A DNA stretch of 62,736 nt, the filler included, from Vannella sp. (Eukaryota), in the NCBI GenBank assembly GCA_023345925.1. It is 5 parts of 5 records of this genome, joined end to end, with 100 filler letters (N's around TTAATTAATTAA, not from the genome) between each part and the next. Parts side by side here need not be neighbours in the genome. Positions count along the whole stretch, not along the records: positions 1 to 7,352 come from JAJQQN010000062.1; 4 more parts are not named here. One strand, written 5' to 3'. The translations under genes and the position numbers were made by a program. Shown in pieces: positions 3,284 through 58,783 of this stretch (positions are counted from its first letter, which is position 1; each line of letters begins with the position of its first letter). Below the pieces are notes generated by a model, which searched no databases, was not told where the DNA came from, and was given only the letters and a program-made list of their open reading frames with translations.

Positions 3284-5502
3284 ATGACAACGGAGGCAGG
3301 AAAGGCCTACAAAGAGTCGCTGCTTGGCCATTTGGTCGCAGAGGACTGGAAGAACGCCCTTGCGCCTGAGTTTGTGAAGACCTACTTTCTCCAACTGTGC
3401 GACAGCATTGCAGCAGACTCTGCTTTGCACAAAGTGTTCCCTCCAGTGGAGAATGTGTTCGAAGCGTTCAACTTGACCCCTCTGGAGTCTGTGAAGGCGG
3501 TTATCCTCGGTCAAGGTGTGCATCTCCTAACAGATTATCACGGACTGACCCATCCTCCCTAGACCCCTACCACGATGACGATCAAGCTCATGGTCTCTGC
3601 TTTTCGGTTCGATTGGGCCACAAGGTTCCCCCTTCCCTGCGAAACATGTACACCGAGTTGGAAACGGACCTGAAGGAGGAGGGCTGGACCCGTCCATCGC
3701 ACGGATACTTGGTCTCCTGGGCCAAACAAGGAGTTTTGATGTTCAACGCCTCCATGACAGTCCAAGCTCACCAAGCGAACTCCCACAAGGCGTTTGGTTG
3801 GCTCACCTTCACCGACGCTGTTTTTGACTTTTTGGACAAAAACAAGAAAGGCATTGTATTTGCTCTTTGGGGTGGATTTGCCCACAAGAAGGGGGCGGTG
3901 AGAACCCACTTTGGGTGATTCGATTGATTTTCTCATTCTGTGGACAGAAAATCAACTTGAGCGACCATGCGGTTATATGCTCGGCTCACCCCTCGCCGCT
4001 GTCCGTGGCAAAATGGAAGGGTTCTCGACCGTTTAGCGCAGTCAACCGCAAGTTGGTTGAGTTTGGGAAGGAGCCAATTGATTGGAGTCTGCCAGAATAC
4101 GAGTCTGTCCCCGTTTTGGGCTCTTCAACAGATGGGATGGCTAATAATAATGAGGGCGAGCTCGGCCAACTCCGAATTACGGAACTTAGGGCCATGTGCC
4201 GCAACCAGGGAGTTTCTCCGTCCGGTAAGAAGTCGGAACTGGTCACTCGGTTGAGTGGACTGGCTGGAAACTCAAGCGTTGATCCTCCAATTGTGACCGC
4301 TCTTGGCAAAAGAAGTCAGAGACCTTCTCGATCTCCCGTCAAGGAGAAGATGCAAAAAACAGAGCCCGAACCGTCACCTCCTTTGGAACCTGAAGTTATC
4401 GAACCAGTAGTGCAACAGGAAAGAGAATCCCCTGTTGCTGAGTTGATGGAAGTCGAGGCACCAGTGCCTCCAGTGACGCCTCCAACACAAATTGAAATGA
4501 AGCCCGAATCTCCTGAAAAGGAAGAACAAGAGGAGGAAAAAGAAGAACCAATCGATGAGAGCTTCTCCAGTCCCGCCAAGTCCAAGTAGGTGAAACACTT
4601 CCAAGGCTGTCTCTTCTGACAAGTCTGGGAAGCTCTCAGATCAAGATAGTCTCTTGGAATGTGGCTGGGTGGCAAGCTGTTCTCAAGAAAGGGTTCCAGT
4701 CGTACGCCAAGAATGAGGATGCGGACGTTTTCTGCCTCCAAGAGACAAAGATCAACCCAGCCGCCGTCGCAGCTGATATCCTTCCAGGTTATCAAAAGTT
4801 CTTCAGCATTGGCCAGCAAAAGGGATACTCAGGCACTGGTATTTTCAGCAAAATCACTCCCTTGAGCACCACCCTCGGCATGGGAATTAGCAAGCACGAT
4901 GATGAGGGAAGAGTCATAACTGTGGAGTACGAAACCTTCTATCTTGTCACCTCCTACATTCCCAACTCTGGCCGAAAGCTTGTTCGCCTCGATTACCGGA
5001 TGGAATGGGATCGCGATTTCTTCTCTTACTTGAAAGGATTGGACGCAAAGAAGCCCGTCATCTGGTGCGGCGACCTCAACGTGGCCCATTTGGAGATTGA
5101 CCTCTCAAATCCCAAAACCAACGTACGAATCGCACCTTCTTTATCCATCTAGCGGACTAACAAAAAGGGGCTCAGAAAAGGAACGCAGGATTCACTTCTG
5201 AAGAGAGAGACAGTTTTGGTAACTTCCTCAAGGAAGGCTTCGTAGACATCTACCGCAAGGAGCACCCAGACGAAACTAACTGCTACACCTATTGGACGTA
5301 CATGAGCAATTGCAGGGCCAAGAACATTGGTTGGCGCCTGGATTACTTTATTGTTTCTGAGCGTTTCGCTCCTCAAGTGAGCCACTACTTCCGACGCGAG
5401 AACGTTCTTGGTTCAGAGTGAGTTCCCGTCCAAACCAGTTTTATTTCCTTCTCACCCATCAATCATAGCCACTGCCCCATCGGTATCCTAGTATCAGTGT
5501 GA
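3284..5502 (+). CDS. Fusion of uracil-DNA glycosylase (UNG), SAP domain and ExoIII/APE1-type AP endonuclease
   Basis: GT-AG introns 3516-3562, 3898-3947, 4586-4632, 5123-5175 and 5418-5468 give a 657-codon frame. UNG motifs: [51 protein letters not shown] motifs: SWNV, LQETK, YIPN, GDLNVAH, WRLDY, SDHCP. Confidence 0.88.
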
Positions 5503-6559
5503 TGATCGACCCCATTCTTTTCGTAATACACTTCTCTGCATATTGAGGTTTGGTTGTGAGAAAATCCACGCGTGAAGGGGAAGAGGGGGGAAGAACTCGC
5601 ATTTGCGTAGCTTGCCCTGATGACCTCCATCTCTTCAGAAAACTCGAGTCTTAAACCACTCTCTGAGAGATGACAGCGGCAAGGTACTTCCAAAGGCACT
5701 CCCAAACCTCACAATGATTGTGTCTTCGAAGCAGAACCAGCCTTTTGCAGAGAGGGTCCTCATATCCAGCCATCTTGCGACTTACCAGCTGATATTCATT
5801 CAAGACAAGTTCTCTCAGCGTGATGCCACCACTGTTACTTCACAGAAAGACGTTGTGGATGCACTATCGCTTCTAATTAAGGAGCGTGGGATTCTGTTTG
5901 GGATTAAGCACGCGACAGTGACACCAGCCAACCAAATTGCCGCACTGAGAGTGGAGGAAAAGAACGGTACTCTGTTGTTTGTTGCCCTCCGCAAGATTCA
6001 ACCTGAAGATGCAGACCAGTGGACAGTATTTCACTTCAGGTCATGAAAGCAGTTCACCAAAAACTTGTTCACCTTCTTTCGACCTGCTTCCTCTTTTGGA
6101 TCGTCAAACAAGCCTCTTCACCAATGAGTAGTCGTCGAGCAGAAAGAACTGGAGTCTGCAAAGACTTCCCAGCTTTTTCGGGGGATCACATCCCACAGTT
6201 TCTCTCGAAAAGAAAACCTTTCAAACACGCAGATTTACTTTCAGAGTAAGTACCAAAGCACACTCCACAAGCCTCACAACGGAAGAGCCCTCGGAGGATG
6301 TTTCCCGTGTTTATTTCGGCTTAGTAGACTTTCTGACGAAGAGATCATCTTTTAATACAAATATTGCACCATTCAAACGACAAACAGATGCATTATTCAA
6401 GAGGATCCGCTTGAAAGAGGTCGAACCAAAGGAGATCTTGTGGAATAGGTTATCTACAACGGAAGTATCACCATGGCTTGATTCAGCGCTTTTCACTCAG
6501 TGGCTTCGAGCAAACTGTTGCGTCAAGATTTGCTCTGCTCATATCTTTGAGAAAAAGGG

Positions 6560-7352
6560 GCGGATGGGTACTATCTTCTGGAAACCTACAAATCCGATCG
6601 GATCCATTCTATCCATTTGTATCTGTTCGAGGCAGCGAGCTTTACCTGTCGACAGTATCCTTATCAGACCTCTTTAGACTCTCAGGGGGCTCCCATTCTC
6701 GACTTTGACACCATTCTCTCTTCTATCACACGTGAGAGGCACTTTTGAGAGTCACTTCTCACTGAATTGAAGCTCAAAGGGGAGACACTCTTTTGTTGCA
6801 AGGTAATTGTCATAATTCAACTGGACTGCCAGTCTCTGAAGCTCAGTGGAAAGTGCTTTTTGAATTTTGTCGTGAGAAAGAGTCTTTATGGTGATTGACA
6901 TGGCCTTTGTGGGAATGGAGAAAGGAGTTCATGAAGACTTTGCTCCGTTTAGAGGTCTGAGTAAGCTCCAGGGAAGAGTGCCATGGTTCTTTGCGGTGTC
7001 CTATTCAAAGTACTTTGCTCTTTACAACGAAAGGATTGGCTCCTTGAGTGTTATCGCATCGGATGAGAACGCAGCTTCTATCTTGGAACACATGACTTTC
7101 TGAGCTCGCTCTTGCTACTCCAGCCCACCTTCCAGAGGTGGAAAAATTGTTGTTAAGTTACTGTTGGACTCTGAACTGTCCTTGCAATGGCTCCGAGAGA
7201 TCCAATTCATTGCTGAAGACATCAAAAATCGTCGAAAGTTACTTGTTGATACCATGGCCATCCACCAGGGGCTAAGCAAGAAGCAGATTGAAGAGTTGAC
7301 TAACCGAAGCTCAATATTCCTAGATTCACAACTGAGAGGCGACCAAGTTGTC
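6560..7352 (+). pseudogene. Disrupted aspartate aminotransferase-like (fold I PLP) sequence
   Basis: LLQGNCHNSTG...QW, IDMAF, SYSKYFALYNERIG (PLP-lysine motif) and YSSPPSRG. In-frame TGA at 7101-7103 and several frameshifts. Runs into the gap. Confidence 0.7.
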
Positions 7353-7452
7353 NNNNNNNNNNNNNNNNNNNNNNNNNNNNNNNNNNNNNNNNNNNNTTAA
7401 TTAATTAANNNNNNNNNNNNNNNNNNNNNNNNNNNNNNNNNNNNNNNNNNNN
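7353..7452. other. Assembly gap / artificial linker
   Basis: N run, TTAATTAATTAA (stops in all six frames), N run. Confidence 0.98.
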
Positions 7453-10400
7453 GCTTTTCGCTTTGCTCCTCATGTGATAGAACGCTTGTGGAAGAGATTC
7501 CAGAGGAAGCTCCATCCCATCCTTGCCTGGACTTGTCGCAGATGCACTGTGTTACCCGCCAGACTTCCTTTGTTGGTGACATTCTGCCCTTTTACTCTTC
7601 TATCCGGGCTCGCCAACAATTTAGGGCTGCCAATGGGTATGTGGCTTGCTCAACTCAAGAAGGGCGATTTGTGATCACTTTAAGATATGAGGAGCCGGGA
7701 ATGTGCCTTGCAGGTGTTAGAGTGCTGGTGGGTCACTCTTCTTTGCAACATATACCCACGCGGTTGGAACTGGGAGATCAGGAGCACGAATGTGATCCCG
7801 GTCAGCGTCGGTGGTATGAGTTCGTTCTCTCTCCAGAGGAGCGGCTGTTCATTGAATCTCAGAGCGATCTTCAGATACACACGCAGAGTGATATGATTGT
7901 CATAGACTCGATTGAAGTCTATGCTGTCCGACTTGATTCAATCTTGCTGGCACCTTCTCCTCCTGTCGTTCTTCAGACCAAGGATCAAGCACTGGAAATG
8001 ACTTTATCTGCACTTCAGAGCCTACTTGAATGTGTCTCGAATCCCCCCAGTGAAGAGCGGCGGGAAAAGTTGAAAGAGCTTGTGACCGCACAGCTTTATC
8101 AATCCACACCACTTCAGTTGAGTTGGAGAAAGTTACTTCGCCATTTGTGCACTTCCGAGGTCTATGAGAGTCACGTGATTGATTCTCTCCTTGCTGGTTG
8201 CGTTTCGGTTCAGGACAGCGGAGAAGGCAACTCTTCAATGAAACGGTTGAACGAATTGATGACTTTAGTCATCAGGACCTATCAACAAGACTCTGCTGTG
8301 GTAGAAAGATGTTTTACCTCCCGCAAACGTGTTTCAGAGCAGATTGTTGAGAACCTGCTAGGCAAATGGCCATCCATTTCAAATAGCTTCTCTGTGCAGG
8401 GATCTTTGGTCCGAGGAGCTGTGAACTTCTTATTGATTCAATTGAAAGCCTCTCTCCACGAGGAGCCATCAGACCGGGACTCTCTTTCAACAGCATTCGT
8501 TGCCCTTCTGTTTGCAGAAGACCTTCATATAGCTCGCGTAGCCTGTAGAGAGTTGAGCCTGCTGCTTGAAGACTTGCTCTTACCTTCAGAACCTACCAAT
8601 CTTTTGATTATCCCTGCTGATGCGGATATTGAAATGGAAGACCCTGACTCTGATGAAGAGATGCGCCAAGTCCTCGCACTGAGCATGCAAACTGCTGGGG
8701 TTAGTGAGACAGCAACCCCAAGAGAGAAGGGTGCCTCCATGGGACTCTATTTGTGGGAGCTCCTCTTCAAGCAGTTCCAGAATCAGAGTCAAACGCCCCT
8801 TCCTGGAGTTACTCGAGTGCTGTTCACTCTCCTTCTTGTGTGTCCCAACGAGCAATCTAGTGACATGCTCGCCCAACTCGTTACTCTGCTTCAGTGCGAA
8901 GACATCTCTATATCCTTGTTGCAACAAATCCTGCTACTTCTGCATGCTTCCATTCAAGAGCTCCCAACTGACCGCTTTGAAGTAGCGACGAAGACTTTGC
9001 GCACATCTTTACTGTTTGGAAGGCTCTGTAAAGTATTAGAAGCCCACGTAAATAGCATTGAGCCCTTGAAGACCCATTCTCCCGTATCCAAGATTTCAGA
9101 GTCTCGTTTGACTCAACCACGAGCCCCCCCAGGAGTGAGCTCGTTTGATGAATGGAGTCCCTTCCTGTCTCAATCGCAGATTGTTGACTTTGTTCACGAG
9201 GGTGCGACAATCACACACCCGGCCCGTGTTCTGGTGGAAACCACCTTAGAGCTTATGAATTCATTGAAACCAAGCCAAGAAGCCGAGAGTGAGTGGGTCA
9301 AGTGTTCAAGCAGCGGTGATTGGGAGAGTCTTTTGTGTAAGATTATGCGCGAACAGACTGGATCACTCCAAGAGCAGGCCCGTAGTTTGTTGTGCTCCTT
9401 CTTAGGAGACTCTGAAAGCAAGCAATTCTACAGCCACTTTAAGCTCGAATCGCTTTGTGTGGAGTGTGAGACGATTGGAGAGAAAGGATGGTCTGGATTA
9501 TCTTATCAGAACGAAGTGAAACTCACGCAGCTCTTTAAAGGACTTGCCAAGCGCGCAAAAAGCCACCCAACAGCCTGGTGTTCGTTCCACAAGAAGAGGC
9601 CGACTCTCATCCCATTCATTTACTCTGCTTGTTTCCATCTGCCTGATGACTCTGTCTCTTTAGGACTCCAACTTCTGGCAGCTGGCTTTGAGAGAGCACC
9701 TTCTCAGACAGAGACTTCTCTCGTAGGTCACCTGCTATCTCAGCTGCCAGAAGGGCAGAGCCTTGCCTCCTTCATCGCTCGATTCGTCTTGGGACACTCT
9801 TTACAATCCATTCGTCTGGAAGCGAGCCGCTTCATTAGCGGCCTTTTAAAATGTGCCACTTCTGACGAAAGGGAGATTCTTAGAGACATTCTGCTTCTTG
9901 CTTCCAGCACACTGGCTCGACATGGCCGCCGCTGTGCTGAGTTCCTCGGTATCCTAAGTAGTCTGTTGGTGAAGCACGATGGAGAGCAAACGAACCTTCT
10001 TCATGGTATTTTGAAAGTCATCCAAGAGCAAAGCGACGCGCTCCTATCTCATCCCCGATATGCTTTGTATTTTGGACTTCTCCAAACTACAAACAAGCTG
10101 AACGGCTTCTACTTTGAAGCACCCTGCTCAGTCTGTCATCAGCAGGCCACAACAGTATCACCACAGGACATAGCTCTGCCTTCGATTAGTCAGGATATCC
10201 GCTACACAGAGTCATCCATTGTGGCTGAACTGAATGGTAGGTGGGCAATCCACTGCATTTCTCTCCACTATTCTCCCAGTGACAGGGCGAGGACACCCCG
10301 ACTCCTCCAAGTTTTCTACTCGAGCAAGCCTTCGCCTCCCCTGACAGCCCTTTTAAGTGACGCCAAGACGGATAGCAAGTCCATGTGGACTGCTGCACCG

Positions 10401-13400
10401 CCCATTGAAGTCAACGCGAGTAATCCACTCAACTCTGTGGAGTTGGTGGTCCCCCTCATTGCAACTGCCGTCCTCTTGGAGTTTTCAGAGTTTGCAGAAG
10501 ACAAGGGAGCAAAGGAGAAGATAACTTGCTTCCGCTGTAACATTGCGGTTCGGGATCCGCACGGGATTTGCGAGATCTGCCGCGACAATGCCCTCCAATG
10601 CCGAGAGTGCCGGAATATCAATTACGAGAACCTCCGCGCGTTCCTCTGCAATGAGTGTGGCCGTTGCAAGTACGGAAGAGTATCTATCCGTCTGAAAGCA
10701 AGTCCTTCGCACACTGTCCCGCGTATTCTCTCGGAGGAAGACGAAGGGGAGGCGCTGACTCGCTTGGCTACTGATACTTCTTCAAGCCGGACACTCCAAT
10801 CCACTATCCAACTCGCACAGAAACGAATGGAGGTCATGTTGGCTCATGTTCCCATCGGAGAAAAGGCTCCCCTCCCCAACGATCCTCCATCTCACGATAG
10901 ACCCACTCCAAGCGATAGGCAATCTCATCGCGACAGGTATTCTCCTTATGAGCGCCACCTCGCGGGCCGCCTTGCCTACAACCGGAAACGGATGGGCTCT
11001 CCTCCACCGCGCCAGATCTGGCGAATTCCTGAGTCTCCAGGTTCAGAAGAGCAAGGCGGAGGAATAGCTTCATACGAAACCAACTGCCGGTTGAGCTTCC
11101 ACTCCCTTTGCGACAACTTCAAGAGAATCCAAGCCACTCGCGCCGAGCTCGCTCGCTACCAGAACCGGCCTCCTCTGAAAGCTCCCGATGGAGGCCACTG
11201 CTTTGGGTGTATCAACAGCGTCATTTGGCAGTGTTTAATCTTCTTCCGCTCTCTGATGGAGAAACCGGTCCTGCGCCAGATACTGATTGGCCAGAAAGCT
11301 ATCGAGATCTGTATGGAAGCAAAGCCTCTGCCTCTGGCGAGCATCAAAGAGTATGAGTCGCAGCTCCAGCGGATTTTGGTGTGCAAGCTTGTGTCGGACT
11401 CTCCGGAAGCCAGCCAACTCCTGACAGAGCTTCTTGTCTCTCGTGTTAACTCTGCCCTGGCTCTTCCACCTTCGCAACTGGCTTTCCAGACATTCCCTTT
11501 TAACGCTATGGCACTCTTGTGCATGTCCACTGGAATGCTGGACTCTTGCTGGCCTGGTAGACTCCGTGCCTTGCTGAAATTGATATTCGAGATTCCCAAA
11601 GCTGTCGAAGACCATCCAGTGGTCGAGCTTCTTGTGCTTATGCCAGCGATTCACCTTCTTCATTCGATCAGTGCTAGCCCTACAAGTACCATGACAGCAG
11701 CCCCAACTGTCACTCTGACTCAATGGGAGAAGAAGGCCGACTCTTTCACTGAGTGGCAGTCGGAGAGTGCCACCAGTCCACCTGTTGTGACAGCGGCACT
11801 CCGCCGTGTAGTCGGGAAATGGCGAGAGGCAGCTGGGCTCAGCAGCCCAATTGGATCACCTTTGCGAGATGACAATTGGCTGATGCGCCTCCTCCTTCCA
11901 CCTCGTTCTCAAGTCATTCGAGAAGGAGCTTCGCGATTGTTGCAATCCTTGGCCGTTGAACCGCACCGTGGACTGCGCTTATTAGACTGTTGCCGGCGAC
12001 ATCTTGCTCTCCTTTCCACCCAACCAAGTGACGACAGACTGTCCGAATTCTTCTCACTTTTCACCGCTTTGCTTGCTTCAGAAGGTGCCAAAGCCTATCT
12101 TGTGCAGCGGCAATTACTACCAGAGATTGTCGTTCTCATTGGGCAACAAGTCACTCTCATTGAGCAGGCAGAGGGTGGCCCAGATCTTTCTTTAAGCCAA
12201 GGATTCATGCTCCACCAGTTAGTCCAACTTCTAAGCGAACTCCTCCAAGTTCCTGGGATTCAACGGCGCTTCAAAGCGTGTGGGCTTGTAACGCTCCTTC
12301 TGGACAGCTACTTGGCTTTGAGGGGCATCAGTGACCAGCGGACGAACTTGGTCGAAAACAGTTGCACGAAGCTGATTGCACTTCTGACGGATCTCCACGC
12401 TAGCAATGACGAAAGAGATAAGCGGGACTTTATCCTTGCGTGCATGTGCGCCCTTGACAAGTACAGTAACCAACCGCGAACGCCACTCTACATCCTGGAA
12501 CAACTCAATCGCATTATCTGCCCTCCCGTGGTGGCGCCAGAGCGCAAACTCACTCTTCGAAAGTCGCCAACTCAGGAAGAATACATCCGCGGGGTGATGG
12601 ACCAGAATCCCTACTCCTCGCTTGAGTGTGGACCTCTGATGCGAGATGTGAAGAACAAAATCTGCAAAGAACTAGCGCTTACGAGCTTCCTGGATGACGA
12701 CAATGGGATGGAACTGCTCGTTTGCAACAAAATCATAGCGTTGGACCTTCCTGTGCTCTCTGTGTATGACCAAGTCTGGGCCTCTAAGGAGGAGAAAGCC
12801 GGCACATCAATGACGGTGGTTTATCGGCTTCAGGGACTCGATGGCGAAGCGACAGAAGAGATGGTCAGCTCCCTCAACAGTCTTGCTGAAGAAGAGTGCA
12901 ACCCAGAAGAGCAGTTTGCAATCACCAAAGCTGTGGCCAATGCAAATGGACTTCAAATTCTCCTCAGAATCATGAGCCAGATAGATCTTGACAGCTCTCA
13001 GCCTCTTGCTGCTGAGCTCCTTCAGCTATTGTCGCACTGCTCGATGGTCCAAGCGAACCGCCGAAGCTTAGTGGAACAAGAAGCCGTTCGTTTGTTACTA
13101 GAGAAGCTCAAACTTGCCTTCCCCAAGGAGAAGCTCGCTTCCTTAGCTCAGCAAATCCTCACCATCCTCGAAGTACTCGTTCGAGAAGCCGCTGAAGGGA
13201 TAAGCCCAGATGCTCCGGACGGAGATCTTGCCGAGGAACAAGAACAAATGAGAATGTTCCTTGAGAAACTGAGCGCTCCTGTTGTGCGACAAAACCCGCG
13301 CATCGTTAAGAGCCTGACTCACATTCTTCCGGTTCTCACTTACGGTCAACCGGCGGTCGCACAGATTCTGGTCAGCTTCTTTGCTCCTCTGGAGTGGACT

Positions 13401-15161
13401 GTTCTTATCAGTGCGCCTAATGGGGACGAAGATGTTATCATGGCTGATGAGGAAGAGCTTTATTTGGCTCGCTACCAAGCAGACTGCCTCGTTGCTGTTT
13501 GCGAGGCCATTCGCCCGGATAGCAATGGAATGATGCTGCGACAATCCTTCTTTGATGCCGGACTGACAACAAGACTGTATCAGCTCTTGGACCAAACGCT
13601 TCCACAGGACTTGGCTGCTACTGAGGAAGCTTTGGAGGCAAGTACACAGCACTCTACTCTCCGCCACATTCTGGCAGCTTTACCTGGCCTCGTCCGCGGG
13701 TTACCAGAGGCCCAAAAGATGTGCATGAGCGAAGACATGCCAAAGCTTCTACATAGAGTGTCACACCTGTCTGGAATGGCAACAAAAGACCGCCTTGGCA
13801 ATCTTGCTGAAGAACTACTCGACGCAGTCTCACACGAACAGCCTGTCGTCGCTAGCGCCATCGAGGAAATCCACCAAAAAGATCGGTTTGAGAAGGAAGA
13901 AACTGCTCGGAAGCACCGCGAACGAGTCTTGGCTCAAATGGGTCTTGTCCACACTGCTGGAGTTAGTATTGGGAAAGTACTTGCACCTCAGGAAGCCTTC
14001 GCAGGTGCGGGAGAGTTGGAAGACGAAGAGGAATTCTCTTGCAAGGTCTGTAAGGAGGGCTTTGGCTATCTCCCAACCAAGATAATGGGAATTTACGTCT
14101 ATTCGCTCCCTCCTACAATCCCTGGGAACACCTCAGAGCCAAGTATCTCAACTGTGACTAACTTTAATCTAATCCATTACGATTGTCACTCTGAAGCCGT
14201 TCGAGCGGACATGAAACGGAAACCTCCCAAACGGGAGTGGGAAGGAGCCACTTTGCGTAACTCCTCTGCGCTGTGCAACAACATATTCCCCATCCTTTCT
14301 GAGCAAACAGACTTGGAGCAATATGGGTTGTTGACCGAGCGGTTCTGGCAAGAGCTTCCTGTCCACCCTCGAAACCGTGTCCGCACCATTTTGTATGATT
14401 TGCGCCAACTCTTGATGCGTCTTATCAATGGCAAATCATTTAACGAGGAGAGCCGTGGAGGGAGCAAAGAGAGTAACATTAGATTAGTTCCCTTCCTCAT
14501 TCAAATGGCAAGTCTCCTATTGGACGGGCTCCCTGTTAGCTCTTCGCAACGGAGAATGTTCGAAGGGCAAATGATTCAGTTCCTCAAGAATGAGCCCAAG
14601 AAAGAGAATTCAGGGAGGCATGGCGCAGTTGATGGGCCTGAGTATTTCCTGCTCTTATCTCTTTTACTATTCTCTCCAGCACAATGGAAGAGTACCAAAT
14701 TTGAGATCTTCAAGCGCATTCTAGCAGCATCTCTTCCACCAACCCCAGAAGTATCAACCTCAGAAGGTGACATAGAGATGTCTGAGGATATCGACGTTTC
14801 TGTTCTTTGGAATGAATCACGCTCCAATCTTTTGATGTTTGGAATCGTTGATGAACTCCAAGCATGCTTGAAAGGCCCAAGCAAAGAACCAGCCGAGAAA
14901 CCAATTCTTGAAGAAGGTGATCTTTCCCATCTTCCCAACGCAGAATGGATCGTCGCACTGAACCTCACTATTCGGGTGGCTCCCTTTAACCTATCTGAAG
15001 ATTTGGTCGTGCGGGTTGGGGAATGGGAAGAAGAGCTCCTCCCCATTTCTTCTTTAGAAGAACTTGCAGATGAACGAGGCCTTCTTCCTTTCATACTGTC
15101 GGAACACCTAACCATGCAAAGCTTTTTAAAGTCTCTTCCCCGTCCTTTTACTCAGAAGTGA
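7453..15161 (+). CDS. UBR4: UBR4/BIG/Pushover-like giant E3 ligase (5' partial)
   Basis: Uninterrupted ORF of over 2550 aa. Cys-rich block QCRECRNINYENLRAFLCNECG, LRKSPTQEEYIRG..NPYSS, GPLMRDVKNKIC, YRLQGLDGEATE, and C-terminal CKVCKEG...FNLIHYDCH...EWEGATLRN..CNN. Confidence 0.92.
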
Positions 15162-17926: not shown

Positions 17927-18495
17927 ATGAAGCTTTGGTGGCTGCTGCTTGTGACGATGGTTTTGTGCAAAGGTCCGCTTCTCGGTTTACCGCGTTATTG
18001 TTGTTCTAATACAATCGAGAAGATTCCTGTCAACCAGAAAGCCAGTTCACGGCAGACATACCCTGCCTGAACAGTTCGCTTGAAGCAGTCAAGTCCAACA
18101 TGCCCTTCTGTGGGGAGGTGATCAGCTACAACATCGACGAGAGGCTCAACTTTCAGGTGTTAGACCGACTCGCCAAGGACCAATTGACCAACTTCAACTC
18201 CACTGGAATGGCCAAACACAACCCCGACTGCTACTTTTACAGAAAGGTCCTCTCATGCTCGCTTGCGTTCCCCATCTGCTCTCAGTCGCCGTACGTCTCT
18301 TTCCCTTGCAAGGATGTTTGCTTGAAGTACTATACTACGTGTGGTGCATCAAGTGAGGAGGATCTAGCAGTGTGCAATTCATTTCCCACAGGGGATTGCG
18401 TCCCTTTGACTCTTTTAGTGGCGAAGCCAAGTTCTCTGGCCTCCTCCATGTACCCATCTACTCTCCTGATAGCCATTATCATGGCTTTCCTCTGA
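17927..18495 (+). CDS. Secreted, probably GPI-anchored protein with Frizzled-type cysteine-rich domain
   Basis: Signal peptide MKLWWLLLVTMVLC, one intron, Cys pattern C..LSCSLAFPIC..PCKDVC..YYTTC, and a hydrophobic C-terminal tail. Confidence 0.65.
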
Positions 18496-21886: not shown

Positions 21887-21986
21887 NNNNNNNNNNNNNN
21901 NNNNNNNNNNNNNNNNNNNNNNNNNNNNNNTTAATTAATTAANNNNNNNNNNNNNNNNNNNNNNNNNNNNNNNNNNNNNNNNNNNN
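21887..21986. other. Assembly gap / artificial linker
   Basis: N run, TTAATTAATTAA, N run. Confidence 0.98.
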
Positions 21987-30965: not shown

Positions 30966-33900
30966 TTAAAGCTCAAACTCCAATTGGAGGAGATAACGCA
31001 TCTTCACCTGCGAAGGGTCGTAAACGACAAACTCCGGATGGTCTTGGGGACATTCCTCGTAGCCTGTGGCTACTTCTGGTCCCAGTACGACGATTGCTGA
31101 GGTTCCAATCTCACTGGGAAGAGGGTTAGAAGGAGTGGGAGGGGAGGGGAACTCACTTGGCCTCTTCTGTGGCTTGGAGGGAGAAGCGGCCGAGAGCCAA
31201 CGTGCTGTGTTTGCCGTGAGCCGAAATCTCCTCTTTGGTGAGATAACGAGGAGTTTCTTGGATGAACTGCTCCCCTAAAGCTACTTCAGACACTAATAAC
31301 AATAGCTGGTTTCCAAACGACGTCGGATGGCAATACTAATCCCCAAAAGAGTGAGTTACTGACTTGGTAAAGTGAATGTTTCGTACCTCGGCGCTCATGG
31401 AGGCCATGTTAGCATGATACACTCCCTTTCCAAACTTGTAACCGCTGTGAGGTGCCTCAGGAGGTGCGATTCGCAATCCCTGGGAGAGAATTCCCACCCA
31501 ATTGGATAGACGAGAGCCGTGCCACAGCAAAACATGGTTTTGAAGGCAATCATGACGTTGGAAACTTTGTTCTTCACCTTCTCTGCGAAGTTTGAAGATA
31601 TGTTTGAGGTGGAGCTTAAAGGGATGTCGATGAGAGTGAGCTGTCCGGAGATAGCGTTCTACCAAGGCATAGTTTGGATGCTCCCGCTCCAACAACGAGA
31701 TCTGATTCTTGAGAGACAGATAATTGGCGTCGCTGGGGTGCAGAGTACTCTTTGCTTCTTGCTGTTGCTTCATTAAAGAAGCTGCAATCTCCATATCTGT
31801 GAGAGTCTGAAGCATATCCAACTTCTCTCGGAGGATGGCCTCATTATCGAGGGAGGGAGGAACAGAGCGGCCAAAGTGGTGGGGGACGATAGTGTAGAAC
31901 TTATTCGTCAAGGAAGACAACCGCGCTTGATTCGGAATGTCCTGTTTCAATTCCACTGCAACCTCTGAAAGTGTGGAGAAGCCTAATCGGATATTGGACT
32001 TGGACAGCTTTCCCAAAGGCAACTTCTCCATGTCCAACTTCAAGTCTGCCATTCCTTGGCGCATGGTGGAAGTATCAAAGATAAGGTCAACCAGCTGCTT
32101 GACGGTTGGATCCAAGCGGGATGGTTGAGTCTCAACCGGCAACGCACTGCTGAGGTCGACATCATCTTCATAAGCAATTTCAATAGGAAAGTAGGCTCCG
32201 CCATACTTTGCGAACTGGCCATCAGCAAACTCGACCCAGCGGTTGCGAGTTTTGTCGTAGAACTTGTCCGCGAATTCCTTCTTCGCGCGATCCAAGCTGG
32301 CAAAGTCTGCCAGTTTCTGACTCCCAATTTTGGTTCCTACACGCCCCCATTTGAGCCACAGGCGCCACGTCCCTTTTCCAGAATCAGGAGCCAGCAGCTG
32401 CATCGTGTAGTACGAATTGACATTGGCCTTGAGATCAGTTTGGTTCAGAACGATATCGTACAGGAGTTTGCCTCGTCCTTCCTCATGAATGTGATACTTG
32501 GAGGTGTCTATCTCGCATTCTGGGTCGATGTACTTCTTTGAGATGCGAGTGAATGTGGCTCCTTCAACCAGTAGGAATTCTTTTGGAGCATCCTGCACCT
32601 CCTGAACTTCCAAGCTTGCGAAGGAGTCTTCAAAATCAGTACCTTCGTAATCATATCCTAATCCTTCATCTGTGCAGATTGGGTCAAAGCCAACAAGTCC
32701 AGAAACGCAATTACGAACGGAGAGACCAGGATCTGCTCCAACGTAGGGAATGTTGAACCTGGTTACATCAATCAGCGCTCCATCAGGAAGCCCTTCTGGA
32801 GAGAAATAGCTCTGTGCTAAAGCAATACCGAGCAATGCTGTTGGATCAGCATTCTGTAGGATTTTTGGTGTTGTTGGCATAACCTTGATTGTCACGCTTT
32901 TCCTCCTCTGAATAGTTTTAAGCCCCTCAGTGGATGGTTGAAGAGTATCCTGCAGCGAAAGTAGTGCGCTTGTGGCATTCTTGGGAGCATCAGGAATGGT
33001 GATTGCCTCCGCGTTGGCAGCGTGTTTCTGCCGTCCAAGAATAAAACCACTCACAGGAAGCAGTTTGCCTGCAGAAATGGATTCATCCAAGAACGCTTCT
33101 TCTACGATGGGAACACCCAGTTGCTTGGCCTTCTCCAAGAGAGCGTTCCCTTTGAAGAAGGTATTCTCACTGCACAGCACCATTGCCGTCCTTTCATTCA
33201 CTGTAGATTGAAGGACTGCAGAGTGATGTGTCAAAAACTCTCCCAGATCCTGCTTGGTCCGACCAATGCGCCCTGATAAGGCCACATGCAGCCCTTCAAG
33301 ATAGTTTGAAGTGACTTCTGGGGCTGGCATGCTGAAGAGATTGGCAAGACTCAAAAGCTCAACGTTTTGAGTGAAATTGATGCGAAATGGGGAACGCTCA
33401 ATGGAGCGGAATCCCCCTTTGGAGAACGAACAAGTACTCCACGCATCGATGTAGCGCCCACAACTCCATTCATCCTGAACGTCATCATAGTGTAGATTAC
33501 CCTCCTTGCAATCTGGACACTGCTGTACGGCCCCCATGATTAATCCTTGTGCGGCTCTCCTAAGAATGTCTTCTTCTCCTCCGCGTATGGCTTGTTTGTT
33601 GATCAGCAGCTGCTCTTTGATCTCTGAAATGCTACATCCCTCATCCAATCGCTCTCTTATCATCCAATCCAACTCACTCTCCTCGGCAGGAGACAAAGTT
33701 CCAGCTTTTCCTTTCTTAATGAGAGTCTCGATAGACTGGGCCACGACAATCTCCTCGATAGGCTCGCCAAACTCTTTGCGGATCTTGTTTTGATCTGACC
33801 AGCGGATACCTTTGAAGCCTTCCAACTCGTTGGTCTTTCGTTCCTTTTTCTTGTTCTGCGAACTCGTTCAGAATCTTTCCGGTTCGGATGGGTGGCGTGA

Positions 33901-51586: not shown

Positions 51587-51686
51587 NNNNNNNNNNNNNN
51601 NNNNNNNNNNNNNNNNNNNNNNNNNNNNNNTTAATTAATTAANNNNNNNNNNNNNNNNNNNNNNNNNNNNNNNNNNNNNNNNNNNN
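51587..51686. other. Assembly gap / artificial linker
   Basis: N run, TTAATTAATTAA, N run. Confidence 0.98.
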
Positions 51687-58210: not shown

Positions 58211-58783
58211 TTACCCTGTGAGGGAGAGCGTTTTTAGAGGGATAGGCGCCGCTGTTCTCGTCCAGACAGAGAGTGATACAATCCACAAGCTGGCATGAGA
58301 GGGATGCCGCTGATTCGATGAAGCTTTGAAGAATCTGCAGAAGAGCGCCCCTTGTTGGCCAAAGGTGTTGTCGATGAGGATCACTCCATTCCAGGAAGCC
58401 TCCACAGTTTCCAATACGACAGCCGTTGTTGTGACCGAGTTGACCAGAATCCTGAATACCTCCTCTCTGTCAGAGACNNNNNNNNNNNNNNNNNNNNNNN
58501 NNNNNNNNNNNNNNNNNNNNNTTAATTAATTAANNNNNNNNNNNNNNNNNNNNNNNNNNNNNNNNNNNNNNNNNNNNGTGTCTGGCAATGAGTTCGTTCC
58601 TCCCTGATGAGATCGCGGGTGTCTGATGAGTTTCATCTTCTGCATCAGCGAGAGGGACTCACCAAGTGGCTTGCTTTCTTCGCTTGAAAGCTGCTTTTGC
58701 CTCCCACAAGGAGGGAACAAGACGAGAGCCTCTTGTAAAGCCTCTTCGACGTCGTCTGGCCACACGCTTCTCTCCTCTGTCAT
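58211..58783 (-). CDS. TEA/TEAD-domain transcription factor, split by the gap
   Basis: VWPDDVEEALQEALVLFPPCGRQK and spliced GRNELIARH (58578-58783). A same-strand terminal exon at 58211-58477 may belong to it. Confidence 0.8.
58478..58577. other. Assembly gap / artificial linker
   Basis: N run, TTAATTAATTAA, N run. Confidence 0.98.

What the first reader, a model, noticed from the sequence alone, without database searches (positions are those of the whole stretch)
3284..5502. Single-chain base-excision-repair enzyme: UNG-SAP-AP endonuclease fusion
Seen: the UNG frame runs past HPSPLS with no stop into a SAP domain and an acidic/Pro linker. Its apparent TAG (4587-4589) lies inside a 47-nt GT-AG intron (4586-4632, CTGAC at 4616-4620). 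Removing that intron joins the frame to [10 protein letters not shown], and I see no nearby in-frame ATG for a separate APE start. The five introns give 656 aa with both active sites intact. Known: UNG makes the abasic site that APE1 cleaves, and SAP plus ExoIII occurs in plant ARP. Inference: the fusion may channel the toxic AP site from glycosylase to endonuclease. I know of no described UNG-APE fusion, but could not search.
Basis: partly seen in the sequence, partly recalled or inferred. Interest (0 to 1): 0.9.

Follow-up and report, generated by a model that had tools for sequence, protein, structure and literature searches.

The report
Amoeba two-in-one uracil repair enzyme
This gene, likely from a Vannella-like amoeba, is predicted to be spliced into one protein that joins the enzyme removing uracil from DNA to the enzyme cutting the resulting gap; a Vannella robusta transcript encodes the same three-part protein, and the tether likely speeds the hand-over between the two repair steps.

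Summary
Confirmed. Five short GT-AG introns give one 656-aa frame, UNG - SAP - ExoIII/APE1, with all catalytic motifs. The disputed intron 4586-4632 is strongly supported without spliced reads. A Vannella robusta transcriptome protein (646 aa) has the same three domains at 51% identity end to end. A genomic fragment of its cluster departs exactly at this junction. A conserved APE motif straddles the intron with the right spacing only for this splice. A third, unnamed protein shares the architecture. Linkers are long, variable and predicted disordered, so a flexible tether is more likely than a rigid channel; channelling is untested. The pairing is rare but not unique: reverse-order APE-UNG proteins occur in Bonamia ostreae and in two unnamed metagenome clusters, one close to giant-virus genes, apparently by separate origins. 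Ten paper searches found no description. I recall a UDG/AP-endonuclease fusion reported in a giant virus, but that paper was not held. The scan had not noted this fusion before; it had noted a diatom Nei-UDG fusion. New variant of a known kind.

The parts
3284..5502 (+). Whole gene, ATG to TGA: 6 exons, predicted 656-aa UNG-SAP-APE protein
   Evidence: one open frame; 51% identity over the whole length to V. robusta P0002, both starting at the same Met
3284..4094 (+). Family-1 uracil-DNA glycosylase domain (aa 1-238) over exons 1-3; catalytic Asp78 (codon split by intron 1), Tyr80, Phe91, Asn139, His203, Leu207
3516..3562 (+). Intron 1 (47 nt, GT..TAG, CTGAC 13 nt from the end); removal restores the GQDPY motif
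3898..3947 (+). Intron 2 (50 nt, GT..CAG)
   Evidence: (no gap against V. robusta)
4095..4160 (+). Linker 1 (22 aa here; 59 aa in V. robusta, 68 aa in P0130)
   Evidence: pLDDT under 50 in the V. robusta model
4161..4265 (+). SAP DNA-binding domain (aa 261-295)
   Evidence: Pfam PF02037 E 2.9e-6, above the curated cut-off
4266..4562 (+). Linker 2, acidic and Pro-rich, about 100 aa, with a candidate bipartite nuclear-localisation pattern at 4308-4355 (KR..K/R cluster, also behind SAP in P0002 and P0130)
   Evidence: NLS function is inferred from a pattern only
4586..4632 (+). Intron 3, the junction intron (47 nt, phase 2, GTAGGT..AAG, CTGAC at 4616-4620); holds the TAG at 4587-4589
4563..5499 (+). 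ExoIII/APE1-family AP endonuclease domain (aa 395-656), starting with the F-x-x-P motif in exon 3; Asn411, Glu439, Tyr467, Arg495, Tyr510, Asn513, Asp549, Asn551, Trp618, Asp621, Asp646 (codon split by intron 5), His647; Ala413 where the zebrafish APEX chain 2o3c has Asp
5123..5175 (+). Intron 4 (53 nt, GT..CAG); the genomic fragment P0122 of the V. robusta cluster breaks off at the same residue
5418..5468 (+). Intron 5 (51 nt, GT..TAG); removal restores the SDHCP motif

Best explanation
The locus is predicted to be spliced into one protein in which a uracil-DNA glycosylase and an ExoIII/APE1 AP endonuclease hang on flexible linkers either side of a SAP domain, and it likely performs the first two steps of uracil base-excision repair as a tethered hand-off. 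Shown by sequence or homology: one open frame, three domains, complete catalytic motifs, the same architecture in a V. robusta transcriptome protein and in a third protein. Inferred steps: (1) SAP and the basic linker patch bring the protein to nuclear DNA and keep it there; (2) the UNG domain flips out and excises uracil and leaves its product; (3) the tethered APE domain, held at high local concentration, binds the fresh abasic site and nicks it on the 5' side, giving 3'-OH and 5'-dRP for a polymerase; (4) the two domains act in turn, since both must grip the same site; (5) the APE domain also serves abasic sites made by other glycosylases. Origin, inferred: a UNG gene joined to the front of an amoebozoan SAP-APE gene.
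For: Frame and motifs. V. robusta P0002/P0121, 646 aa, UDG + SAP + Exo_endo_phos, from MMETSP0166, 353 of 691 aligned positions identical; both halves pass the NCBIfam ung and xth cut-offs. Third fused protein P0130 (585 aa, N-truncated, Logan contig). Junction: P0122, an ENA protein in the V. robusta cluster, is identical to P0002 over residues 382-544 and departs exactly at the positions of window introns 3 and 4; the residue before the shared part is Arg against Lys, which fits only a phase-2 AG acceptor, as in the window (read from protein, DNA not seen). F-x-x-P lies 7 residues before K-I-V-S-W-N in 53 of the 55 other stored APE proteins that have it (168 others examined, near-copies included); of 7 splices tried only 4586-4632 gives 7. 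Tether: linkers of 22/108, 59/51 and 68/81 aa without conserved sequence; AlphaFold model of P0002 has three folded parts, pLDDT under 50 at 245-292 and 331-374, pTM 0.50. Human UNG2 does not bind its AP product and stimulates APE1 (PMC1919486 abstract, section 15). Stand-alone SAP-APE proteins exist in Planoprotostelium and Pyxidicula. UNG domains of the three fused proteins form one branch, 100/98, among 57 UNGs.
Against: No spliced read or contig crosses intron 3 or any other intron in this organism, and its acceptor is AAG, unlike the other four. No activity, localisation or kinetic data exist. V. robusta itself lacks the F-x-x-P motif (one search list), so that test rests on other relatives. 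UNG is a promiscuous fusion partner (Nth, Nei-like H2TH, photolyase, Macro, Pif1 helicase, DHFR, RNase H), so a fusion alone does not show kinetic coupling. In PMC1919486 UNG2 stimulated APE1 but not ExoIII and was itself only weakly stimulated by APE1. Most relatives seen (Acanthamoeba UNG, dictyostelid, Cavostelium, Pelomyxa APEs) are separate proteins, so the fusion is dispensable. The APE domain of P0130 does not group with the other two (0 of 200 bootstrap trees; AU p 0.198), so a single origin is not shown. SAP also sits on stand-alone UNGs (4 stored proteins, among them Acanthamoeba), so its parent is not settled.
Confidence: 0.65

Rival explanations
1. The fusion is real but kinetically unimportant: it fixes a 1:1 supply of two repair enzymes and lets them share one SAP anchor and one nuclear import signal, or it is a near-neutral read-through of neighbouring genes in a compact genome; each domain works on its own.
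For: Both stand-alone UNGs (4 stored proteins) and stand-alone APEs (16 stored proteins) carry an N-terminal SAP; the fusion keeps one. The UNG half has no N-terminal extension and no PIP-box pattern. UNG fuses to many unrelated partners. The window is gene-dense with 45-60 nt introns. UNG2 and APE1 cooperate without being fused (PMC1919486).
Against: The fusion has been kept between proteins only 51% identical, and the same two consecutive enzymes are fused in reverse order in Bonamia and in two metagenome clusters whose UNG domains lie elsewhere in the tree, which suggests repeated selection for this pair.
Confidence: 0.24
2. The two catalytic domains dock into a fixed arrangement and pass the abasic site directly, without releasing the DNA (true channelling, the first reader's strong reading).
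For: UNG2 stimulates APE1 but not ExoIII, which the authors read as possible physical contact (PMC1919486 section 15). Both halves are well conserved between the window and V. robusta (62% and 69%).
Against: Linkers differ in length and sequence and are predicted disordered, pTM 0.50 and 0.48 in the Atlas model. From general knowledge both enzymes flip the same nucleotide and cannot sit on it together.
Confidence: 0.06
3. In this organism the locus mainly gives separate products: an unspliced or alternatively spliced UNG-SAP ending at TAG 4587-4589, and/or a SAP-APE started at an internal ATG (4137).
For: AAG acceptor; using the CAG at 4639 instead gives a stop with either donor; an in-frame ATG at 4137 precedes SAP; no junction reads.
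Against: No stop closes the UNG frame before 4587; no ATG opens the APE frame; the start of the APE fold's N-terminal motif is in exon 3; V. robusta mRNA-derived protein is fused, with the junction at the same place. A misassembly cannot explain the V. robusta protein.
Confidence: 0.05

Closest known systems
Vannella robusta 'Uracil-DNA glycosylase' UniRef100_A0A7S4I9H6 / EukProt EP00012_P006337 (P0002, P0121)
   Same: Same order UDG-SAP-Exo_endo_phos, same start, 51% identity overall, sister in the APE tree (99/94) and in one branch in the UNG tree; introns 3 and 4 apparently at the same places. This is the orthologue.
   Different: Longer acidic linker before SAP, shorter linker after it, no F-x-x-P motif, short C-terminal tail. 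Only an automatic name; no study found.
Family-1 UNG (human UNG2, E. coli Ung, cod UNG; PF03167, TIGR00628)
   Same: All motifs of the active site; best PDB matches 1okb, 3tkb, 1akz.
   Different: No N-terminal regulatory extension or PIP-box pattern; continues into SAP and an AP endonuclease.
ExoIII/APE1 family (human APE1, zebrafish APEX 2o3c, B. subtilis ExoA 5cfe; TIGR00633) and SAP-bearing members (plant ARP-like clusters; Planoprotostelium and Pyxidicula SAP-APE)
   Same: Catalytic set complete; SAP before the nuclease as in those proteins.
   Different: Carries a whole glycosylase in front. Ala at the position of APE1 Asp70, which in Leishmania LMAP and APE1 D70A goes with stronger removal of 3'-blocking ends (PMC2665217, abstract only); Ala is common there (100 of 285 stored matches).
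APE-UNG proteins of Bonamia ostreae (MHBO_001783; P0154, P0232, P0233) and unnamed metagenome clusters P0237 and P0343 (6 members each)
   Same: ExoIII-family nuclease and family-1 UNG in one chain; the 11 metagenome members tested keep all 8 motifs checked.
   Different: Reverse order, no SAP, short linkers; UNG domains lie on other branches. The Bonamia models lack the C-terminal HPSPLS part and sit on a 3.5-kb contig. P0343's halves are 58% identical to two neighbouring but separate genes of a giant-virus MAG contig.
Giant-virus repair-gene fusions (CeV, PgV)
   Same: Consecutive base-excision-repair enzymes joined in one chain: DNA polymerase X + NAD-dependent ligase (PMC4669402, passages).
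   Different: Other steps of the pathway. A UDG/AP-endonuclease fusion in CeV is recalled from Gallot-Lavallee et al. 2017 (J Virol), which was not held; unverified.
Single-enzyme uracil nickers: archaeal Mth212 (ExoIII homologue that cuts at U; recalled), bifunctional glycosylase/lyases, the UDG + endonuclease VIII reagent mix (recalled)
   Same: Net result would be a strand break at uracil from one protein.
   Different: Here two separate active sites act in turn and would leave a ready 3'-OH; Mth212 uses one site, lyases leave blocked ends. From recall, not tested.

Membership tests
Family-1 UNG | UDG fold domain above the family cut-off | tested here: met
   PF03167 on exon 2, 26.2 bits against cut-off 24.3; the V. 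robusta orthologue scores 264.9 on TIGR00628, cut-off 185.75
Family-1 UNG | GQDPY water-activating loop, uracil-pocket Tyr/Phe/Asn, Pro-rich loop, HPSPLS intercalation loop | tested here: met
   motif names recalled, D145/Y147/N204 roles in the table of PMC1919486
Family-1 UNG | Uracil excision, inhibition by Ugi | not testable with these tools
   needs the purified protein
ExoIII/APE1 (Xth) AP endonuclease | Exo_endo_phos domain, xth profile above cut-off | tested here: met
   exon 4 alone 176.8 bits on TIGR00633, cut-off 99.05; PF03372
ExoIII/APE1 (Xth) AP endonuclease | Metal-binding Glu, catalytic Tyr, Asp-x-Asn, Asp-His pair, WRLDY pocket | tested here: met
ExoIII/APE1 (Xth) AP endonuclease | Mg-dependent 5' incision at abasic sites | not testable with these tools
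   needs the purified protein
SAP-bearing AP endonucleases (plant ARP type) | SAP domain N-terminal to the nuclease | tested here: met
SAP-bearing AP endonucleases (plant ARP type) | Stand-alone nuclease with no second catalytic domain | tested here: not met
   a complete UNG precedes SAP; it works like such an enzyme but is a fusion
APE-UNG fusions (Bonamia, metagenome/giant-virus-like) | Nuclease first, UNG last, no SAP, shared ancestry of the fused domains | tested here: not met
   order reversed; UNG domains on other branches; Bonamia APE apart in the quick tree, on a long branch
UNG-SAP-APE clade (window, V. robusta, P0130) | Single origin of the fusion | tested here: inconclusive
   UNG tree: one branch 100/98; APE tree: two places, AU p 0.198
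Substrate-channelling bifunctional enzymes | Intermediate passed without release | not testable with these tools
   needs trap and split-versus-fused kinetics

The most novel reading that the evidence does not exclude
UNG and an ExoIII-type AP endonuclease have been joined into one chain at least three separate times (Vannella-type amoebae with SAP between, Bonamia, giant-virus-like genomes), because tethering lets one protein turn a uracil into a polymerase-ready nick in a single encounter with DNA. The amoeba enzyme would then be an undescribed natural single-chain model of the glycosylase-to-endonuclease hand-off and a one-protein uracil-nicking reagent.
Probability: 0.35. Interest if true: 0.72.

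Novelty: new variant of a known kind. Interest (0 to 1): 0.5.

Why it matters
How a glycosylase passes the abasic site to the AP endonuclease is a long-standing question of base-excision repair, hard to study because the partners meet only briefly. A natural tethered pair, kept in at least two divergent amoebae and mirrored by reverse-order fusions elsewhere, allows a clean test: intact against split, with single active-site mutants. It could also serve as a single-protein reagent that nicks at uracil and leaves a 3'-OH. Both parts are textbook enzymes, so no new chemistry is expected.

Tried and rejected
RNA evidence: only two freshwater metatranscriptome runs held 8-10% of the words; 4 contigs were laid, 3 inside exons of the gene (3318-3468, 3609-3759, 4090-4317), none across an intron, and they may be DNA. 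No whole genome is held, so I could not ask whether this is the organism's only UNG or APE. Exon 3 as query for longer proteins found nothing (0 of 2618 candidates). The loose intron-motif scan was at chance. Alternative splices at the junction: of those listed only 4586-4632 and 4580-4632 have both the usual length and a branch motif; 7 were translated. JGI metagenome loci: 80 UNG-like loci, none with an ExoIII gene in the DNA held. IMG/VR: 0 of 80 ExoIII loci and 0 of 80 UNG loci were fused, one contig had the two as neighbours; P0237 matched nothing there, so its viral origin is not shown. Phage records: no record covers 80% of P0237. PDB: none of the best 60 of 86 matches holds both domains. 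ESM Atlas: no listed cluster with both families (clusters under 50 members are not searched). The 50%-identity library lists neither P0002 nor P0130 as a representative, so it hides such fusions and gives no count. A complex prediction of the UNG and APE domains was not available, so no verdict on docking. Papers: searches gave no description of a UNG-APE fusion (one search was for mechanism); term look-ups in PMC10220248, PMC11069148, PMC8383295, PMC5871332, PMC11953307, PMC6163669, PMC4669402 found none either (passages only; no supplements opened). PMC8730318 seen as abstract only. Stop-codon reassignment (TAG read through with intron 4590-4639) was considered and rejected: it gives the wrong motif spacing. 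Trees left out near-copies and most bacterial double-UNG proteins; Bonamia was left out of the careful APE tree because of its long branch (48 rows, 39, 36, 57).

Full report
1. The observation. The window is eukaryotic and gene-dense, with short introns; neighbours include a protein kinase on the minus strand just upstream, a UBR4-like ligase, an actinin-like protein, a cullin, a PARP and G-beta-like repeats. At 3284-5502 six exons separated by GT-AG introns of 47, 50, 47, 53 and 51 nt give 656 codons without a stop. Pfam places UDG, SAP and Exo_endo_phos in that order. The codons of both catalytic aspartates are split by introns 1 and 5, which pins those two introns.

2. Is the junction intron real? 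Splice signals alone do not settle it. A loose motif scan of the window gives chance numbers. The acceptor is AAG, while the four other introns of the gene end in CAG or TAG, as do the best-looking candidates, picked by eye, at 8 junctions in neighbouring genes. RNA data are thin: two runs, three short contigs inside exons, none across an intron. Three independent lines settle it. First, exon 4's best true match among longer proteins is a 646-aa Vannella robusta protein with UDG, SAP and Exo_endo_phos (the one higher-scoring hit, P0001, is a repeated bacterial-type ExoIII). It comes from the MMETSP0166 transcriptome and aligns with the model from the first Met to the last motif, 353 of 691 positions identical. 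Second, P0122, an ENA protein in the same 90% cluster, equals the V. robusta protein over residues 382-544 and departs on both sides exactly where the window has introns 3 and 4. The residue before the shared part is Arg rather than Lys, which fits only a phase-2 AG acceptor, the phase seen in the window (inferred from protein letters, the DNA was not seen). Third, a motif F-x-x-P precedes K-I-V-S-W-N by 7 residues in 53 of the 55 other stored APE proteins that carry it (of 168 examined, near-copies included). In the window the F-x-x-P is in exon 3, and only the splice 4586-4632, of 7 tried, gives 7. So the exon that ends the UNG domain and holds SAP also starts the APE domain. V. robusta itself lacks this motif. 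I put the fused reading at over 90%.

3. Range. Among proteins of 355-1131 aa, 3 of the 120 listed (of 651) carry both Pfam families: V. robusta, P0130 (585 aa, Logan, same order with SAP, cut at the N-terminus) and Bonamia ostreae P0154 (nuclease first, UNG last). The 50%-identity library adds, among its best 150, two more nuclease-first proteins, P0237 and P0343, each in a cluster of 6 unnamed metagenome proteins; that library lists neither P0002 nor P0130, so it undercounts. The 11 members tested keep all 8 motifs. Both halves of P0343 are 58% identical to two genes of a giant-virus MAG contig, separate there with a 119-aa ORF between. No fusion was seen in 80 viral ExoIII loci or 80 viral UNG loci. 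No listed Atlas cluster and none of the 60 PDB matches shown has both domains.

4. Trees. The APE domains of the window and V. robusta are sisters (99/94) inside a mostly amoebozoan group; P0130's APE sits with Pyxidicula-like SAP-APEs, and a tree holding the three together is neither found (0 of 200 bootstraps) nor rejected (AU p 0.198) (one search agrees). The three UNG domains form one branch, 100/98, among 57 UNGs that include Acanthamoeba and Rhizamoeba; the UNGs of Bonamia, P0237 and P0343 lie elsewhere (with poorer sampling gave 96/82). The window's organism is therefore likely a Vannella-like amoeba (from this gene only). The nuclease-first proteins look like separate origins. Whether P0130 shares the origin is open.

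5. Anatomy and mechanism. Both active sites are complete. Position 413 is Ala where the zebrafish APEX chain has Asp; in Leishmania LMAP and human APE1 D70A, Ala goes with better removal of 3'-blocking ends (PMC2665217, abstract only), but Ala is common among relatives. The linkers are 22 and 108 aa here, 59 and 51 in V. robusta, 68 and 81 in P0130, with no conserved sequence except a KR..K/R pattern after SAP that may be a nuclear import signal. The AlphaFold model of the V. robusta protein shows three folded parts and two disordered linkers, pTM 0.50. SAP occurs at the N-terminus of 16 stored stand-alone APEs and 4 stand-alone UNGs, Acanthamoeba's among them, so the fusion keeps one anchor for two enzymes; its place favours the APE parent but does not prove it. 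The most likely working is a tethered hand-off: SAP holds the protein on DNA, UNG excises uracil and leaves, and the tethered nuclease takes the fresh abasic site and nicks it. Human UNG2 does not bind its AP product, is only weakly stimulated by APE1, and stimulates APE1 but not ExoIII (PMC1919486, abstract, section 15 and passages). A fast glycosylase that leaves its product unguarded is one for which a tethered nuclease would help; this step is inference. Against over-reading: UNG also appears fused to Nth, a Nei-like domain, photolyase, Macro, Pif1, DHFR and RNase H in my own search results, and most relatives keep the two enzymes apart.

6. What is known. Both parts are textbook families and pass their membership tests on sequence. 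The architecture is in UniRef under an automatic name. Nine searches aimed at the fusion or its organisms and term look-ups in seven papers found no description; the library lacks most subscription journals, and no supplements were opened. The CeV genome note reports a polymerase X-ligase fusion (PMC4669402, passages). I recall that the fuller CeV paper also describes a UDG/AP-endonuclease fusion; it was not held, so this stays a recalled lead that would lower the novelty. The scan's own notes hold nothing by sequence or place and one analogous diatom Nei-UDG fusion by words, unchecked.

7. Verdict. A real, conserved, rare fusion of two consecutive base-excision-repair enzymes around a SAP domain; probably undescribed in cells; mechanism most likely a flexible tether. 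New variant of a known kind, interest 0.5; up to about 0.7 if kinetic coupling is shown.

Noticed in passing
P0237 and P0343 with cluster members; L165:4001-5828: Two unnamed metagenome families with ExoIII fused in front of UNG (480-530 aa, all motifs intact); in a giant-virus MAG contig the closest genes are neighbours but separate.
   Followed up: partly
P0154, P0232, P0233 (Bonamia ostreae MHBO_001783): APE-UNG gene model in reverse order with a repetitive Asn/Lys/Gln-rich linker; the UNG part is incomplete in all three models, on a 3.5-kb contig.
   Followed up: partly
P0131-P0141, P0236, P0280: Bacterial-looking 470-800 aa proteins joining endonuclease III (Nth, HhH-GPD) to one or two UNG domains, the second with altered catalytic motifs; another glycosylase/lyase + UNG fusion.
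   Followed up: no
L179, L180, L209, L210, L212, L217: Pif1-like helicase fused to a C-terminal UNG in 6 of 80 viral UNG loci, one with an extra RNase H1 N-terminal domain; also DHFR-UNG (L177) and UNG-RNase H (L208).
   Followed up: no
P0346 (Rhizamoeba saxonica), P0325, P0355: Nei-like H2TH-UNG fusion in a tubulinean amoeba, like the diatom fusion noted earlier by the scan; photolyase-UNG and UNG-Macro fusions in other proteins.
   Followed up: no
P0260 (Acanthamoeba castellanii), P0246, P0331, P0353: Stand-alone UNGs with an N-terminal SAP domain, matching the SAP on stand-alone amoebozoan AP endonucleases.
   Followed up: partly
window 31339-33867 (-): PARP1-like gene (PADR1, BRCT, WGR, regulatory and catalytic domains), another repair gene on the same contig, 26 kb away; probably coincidence.
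   Followed up: no
window 7455-15158 (+): Intron-free frame of over 2500 codons for a UBR4-like E3 ligase, unusual among genes with frequent short introns.
   Followed up: no
window 7353-7452, 21887-21986, 51587-51686, 58478-58577: Four scaffold gaps, each two runs of 44 N around 12 bases; none lies in the gene studied.
   Followed up: no
window 5624-6043 and 6132-6674 (+): Open frames right behind the gene without a Pfam match; 18010-18492 (+) has a weak Frizzled cysteine-rich domain match.
   Followed up: no
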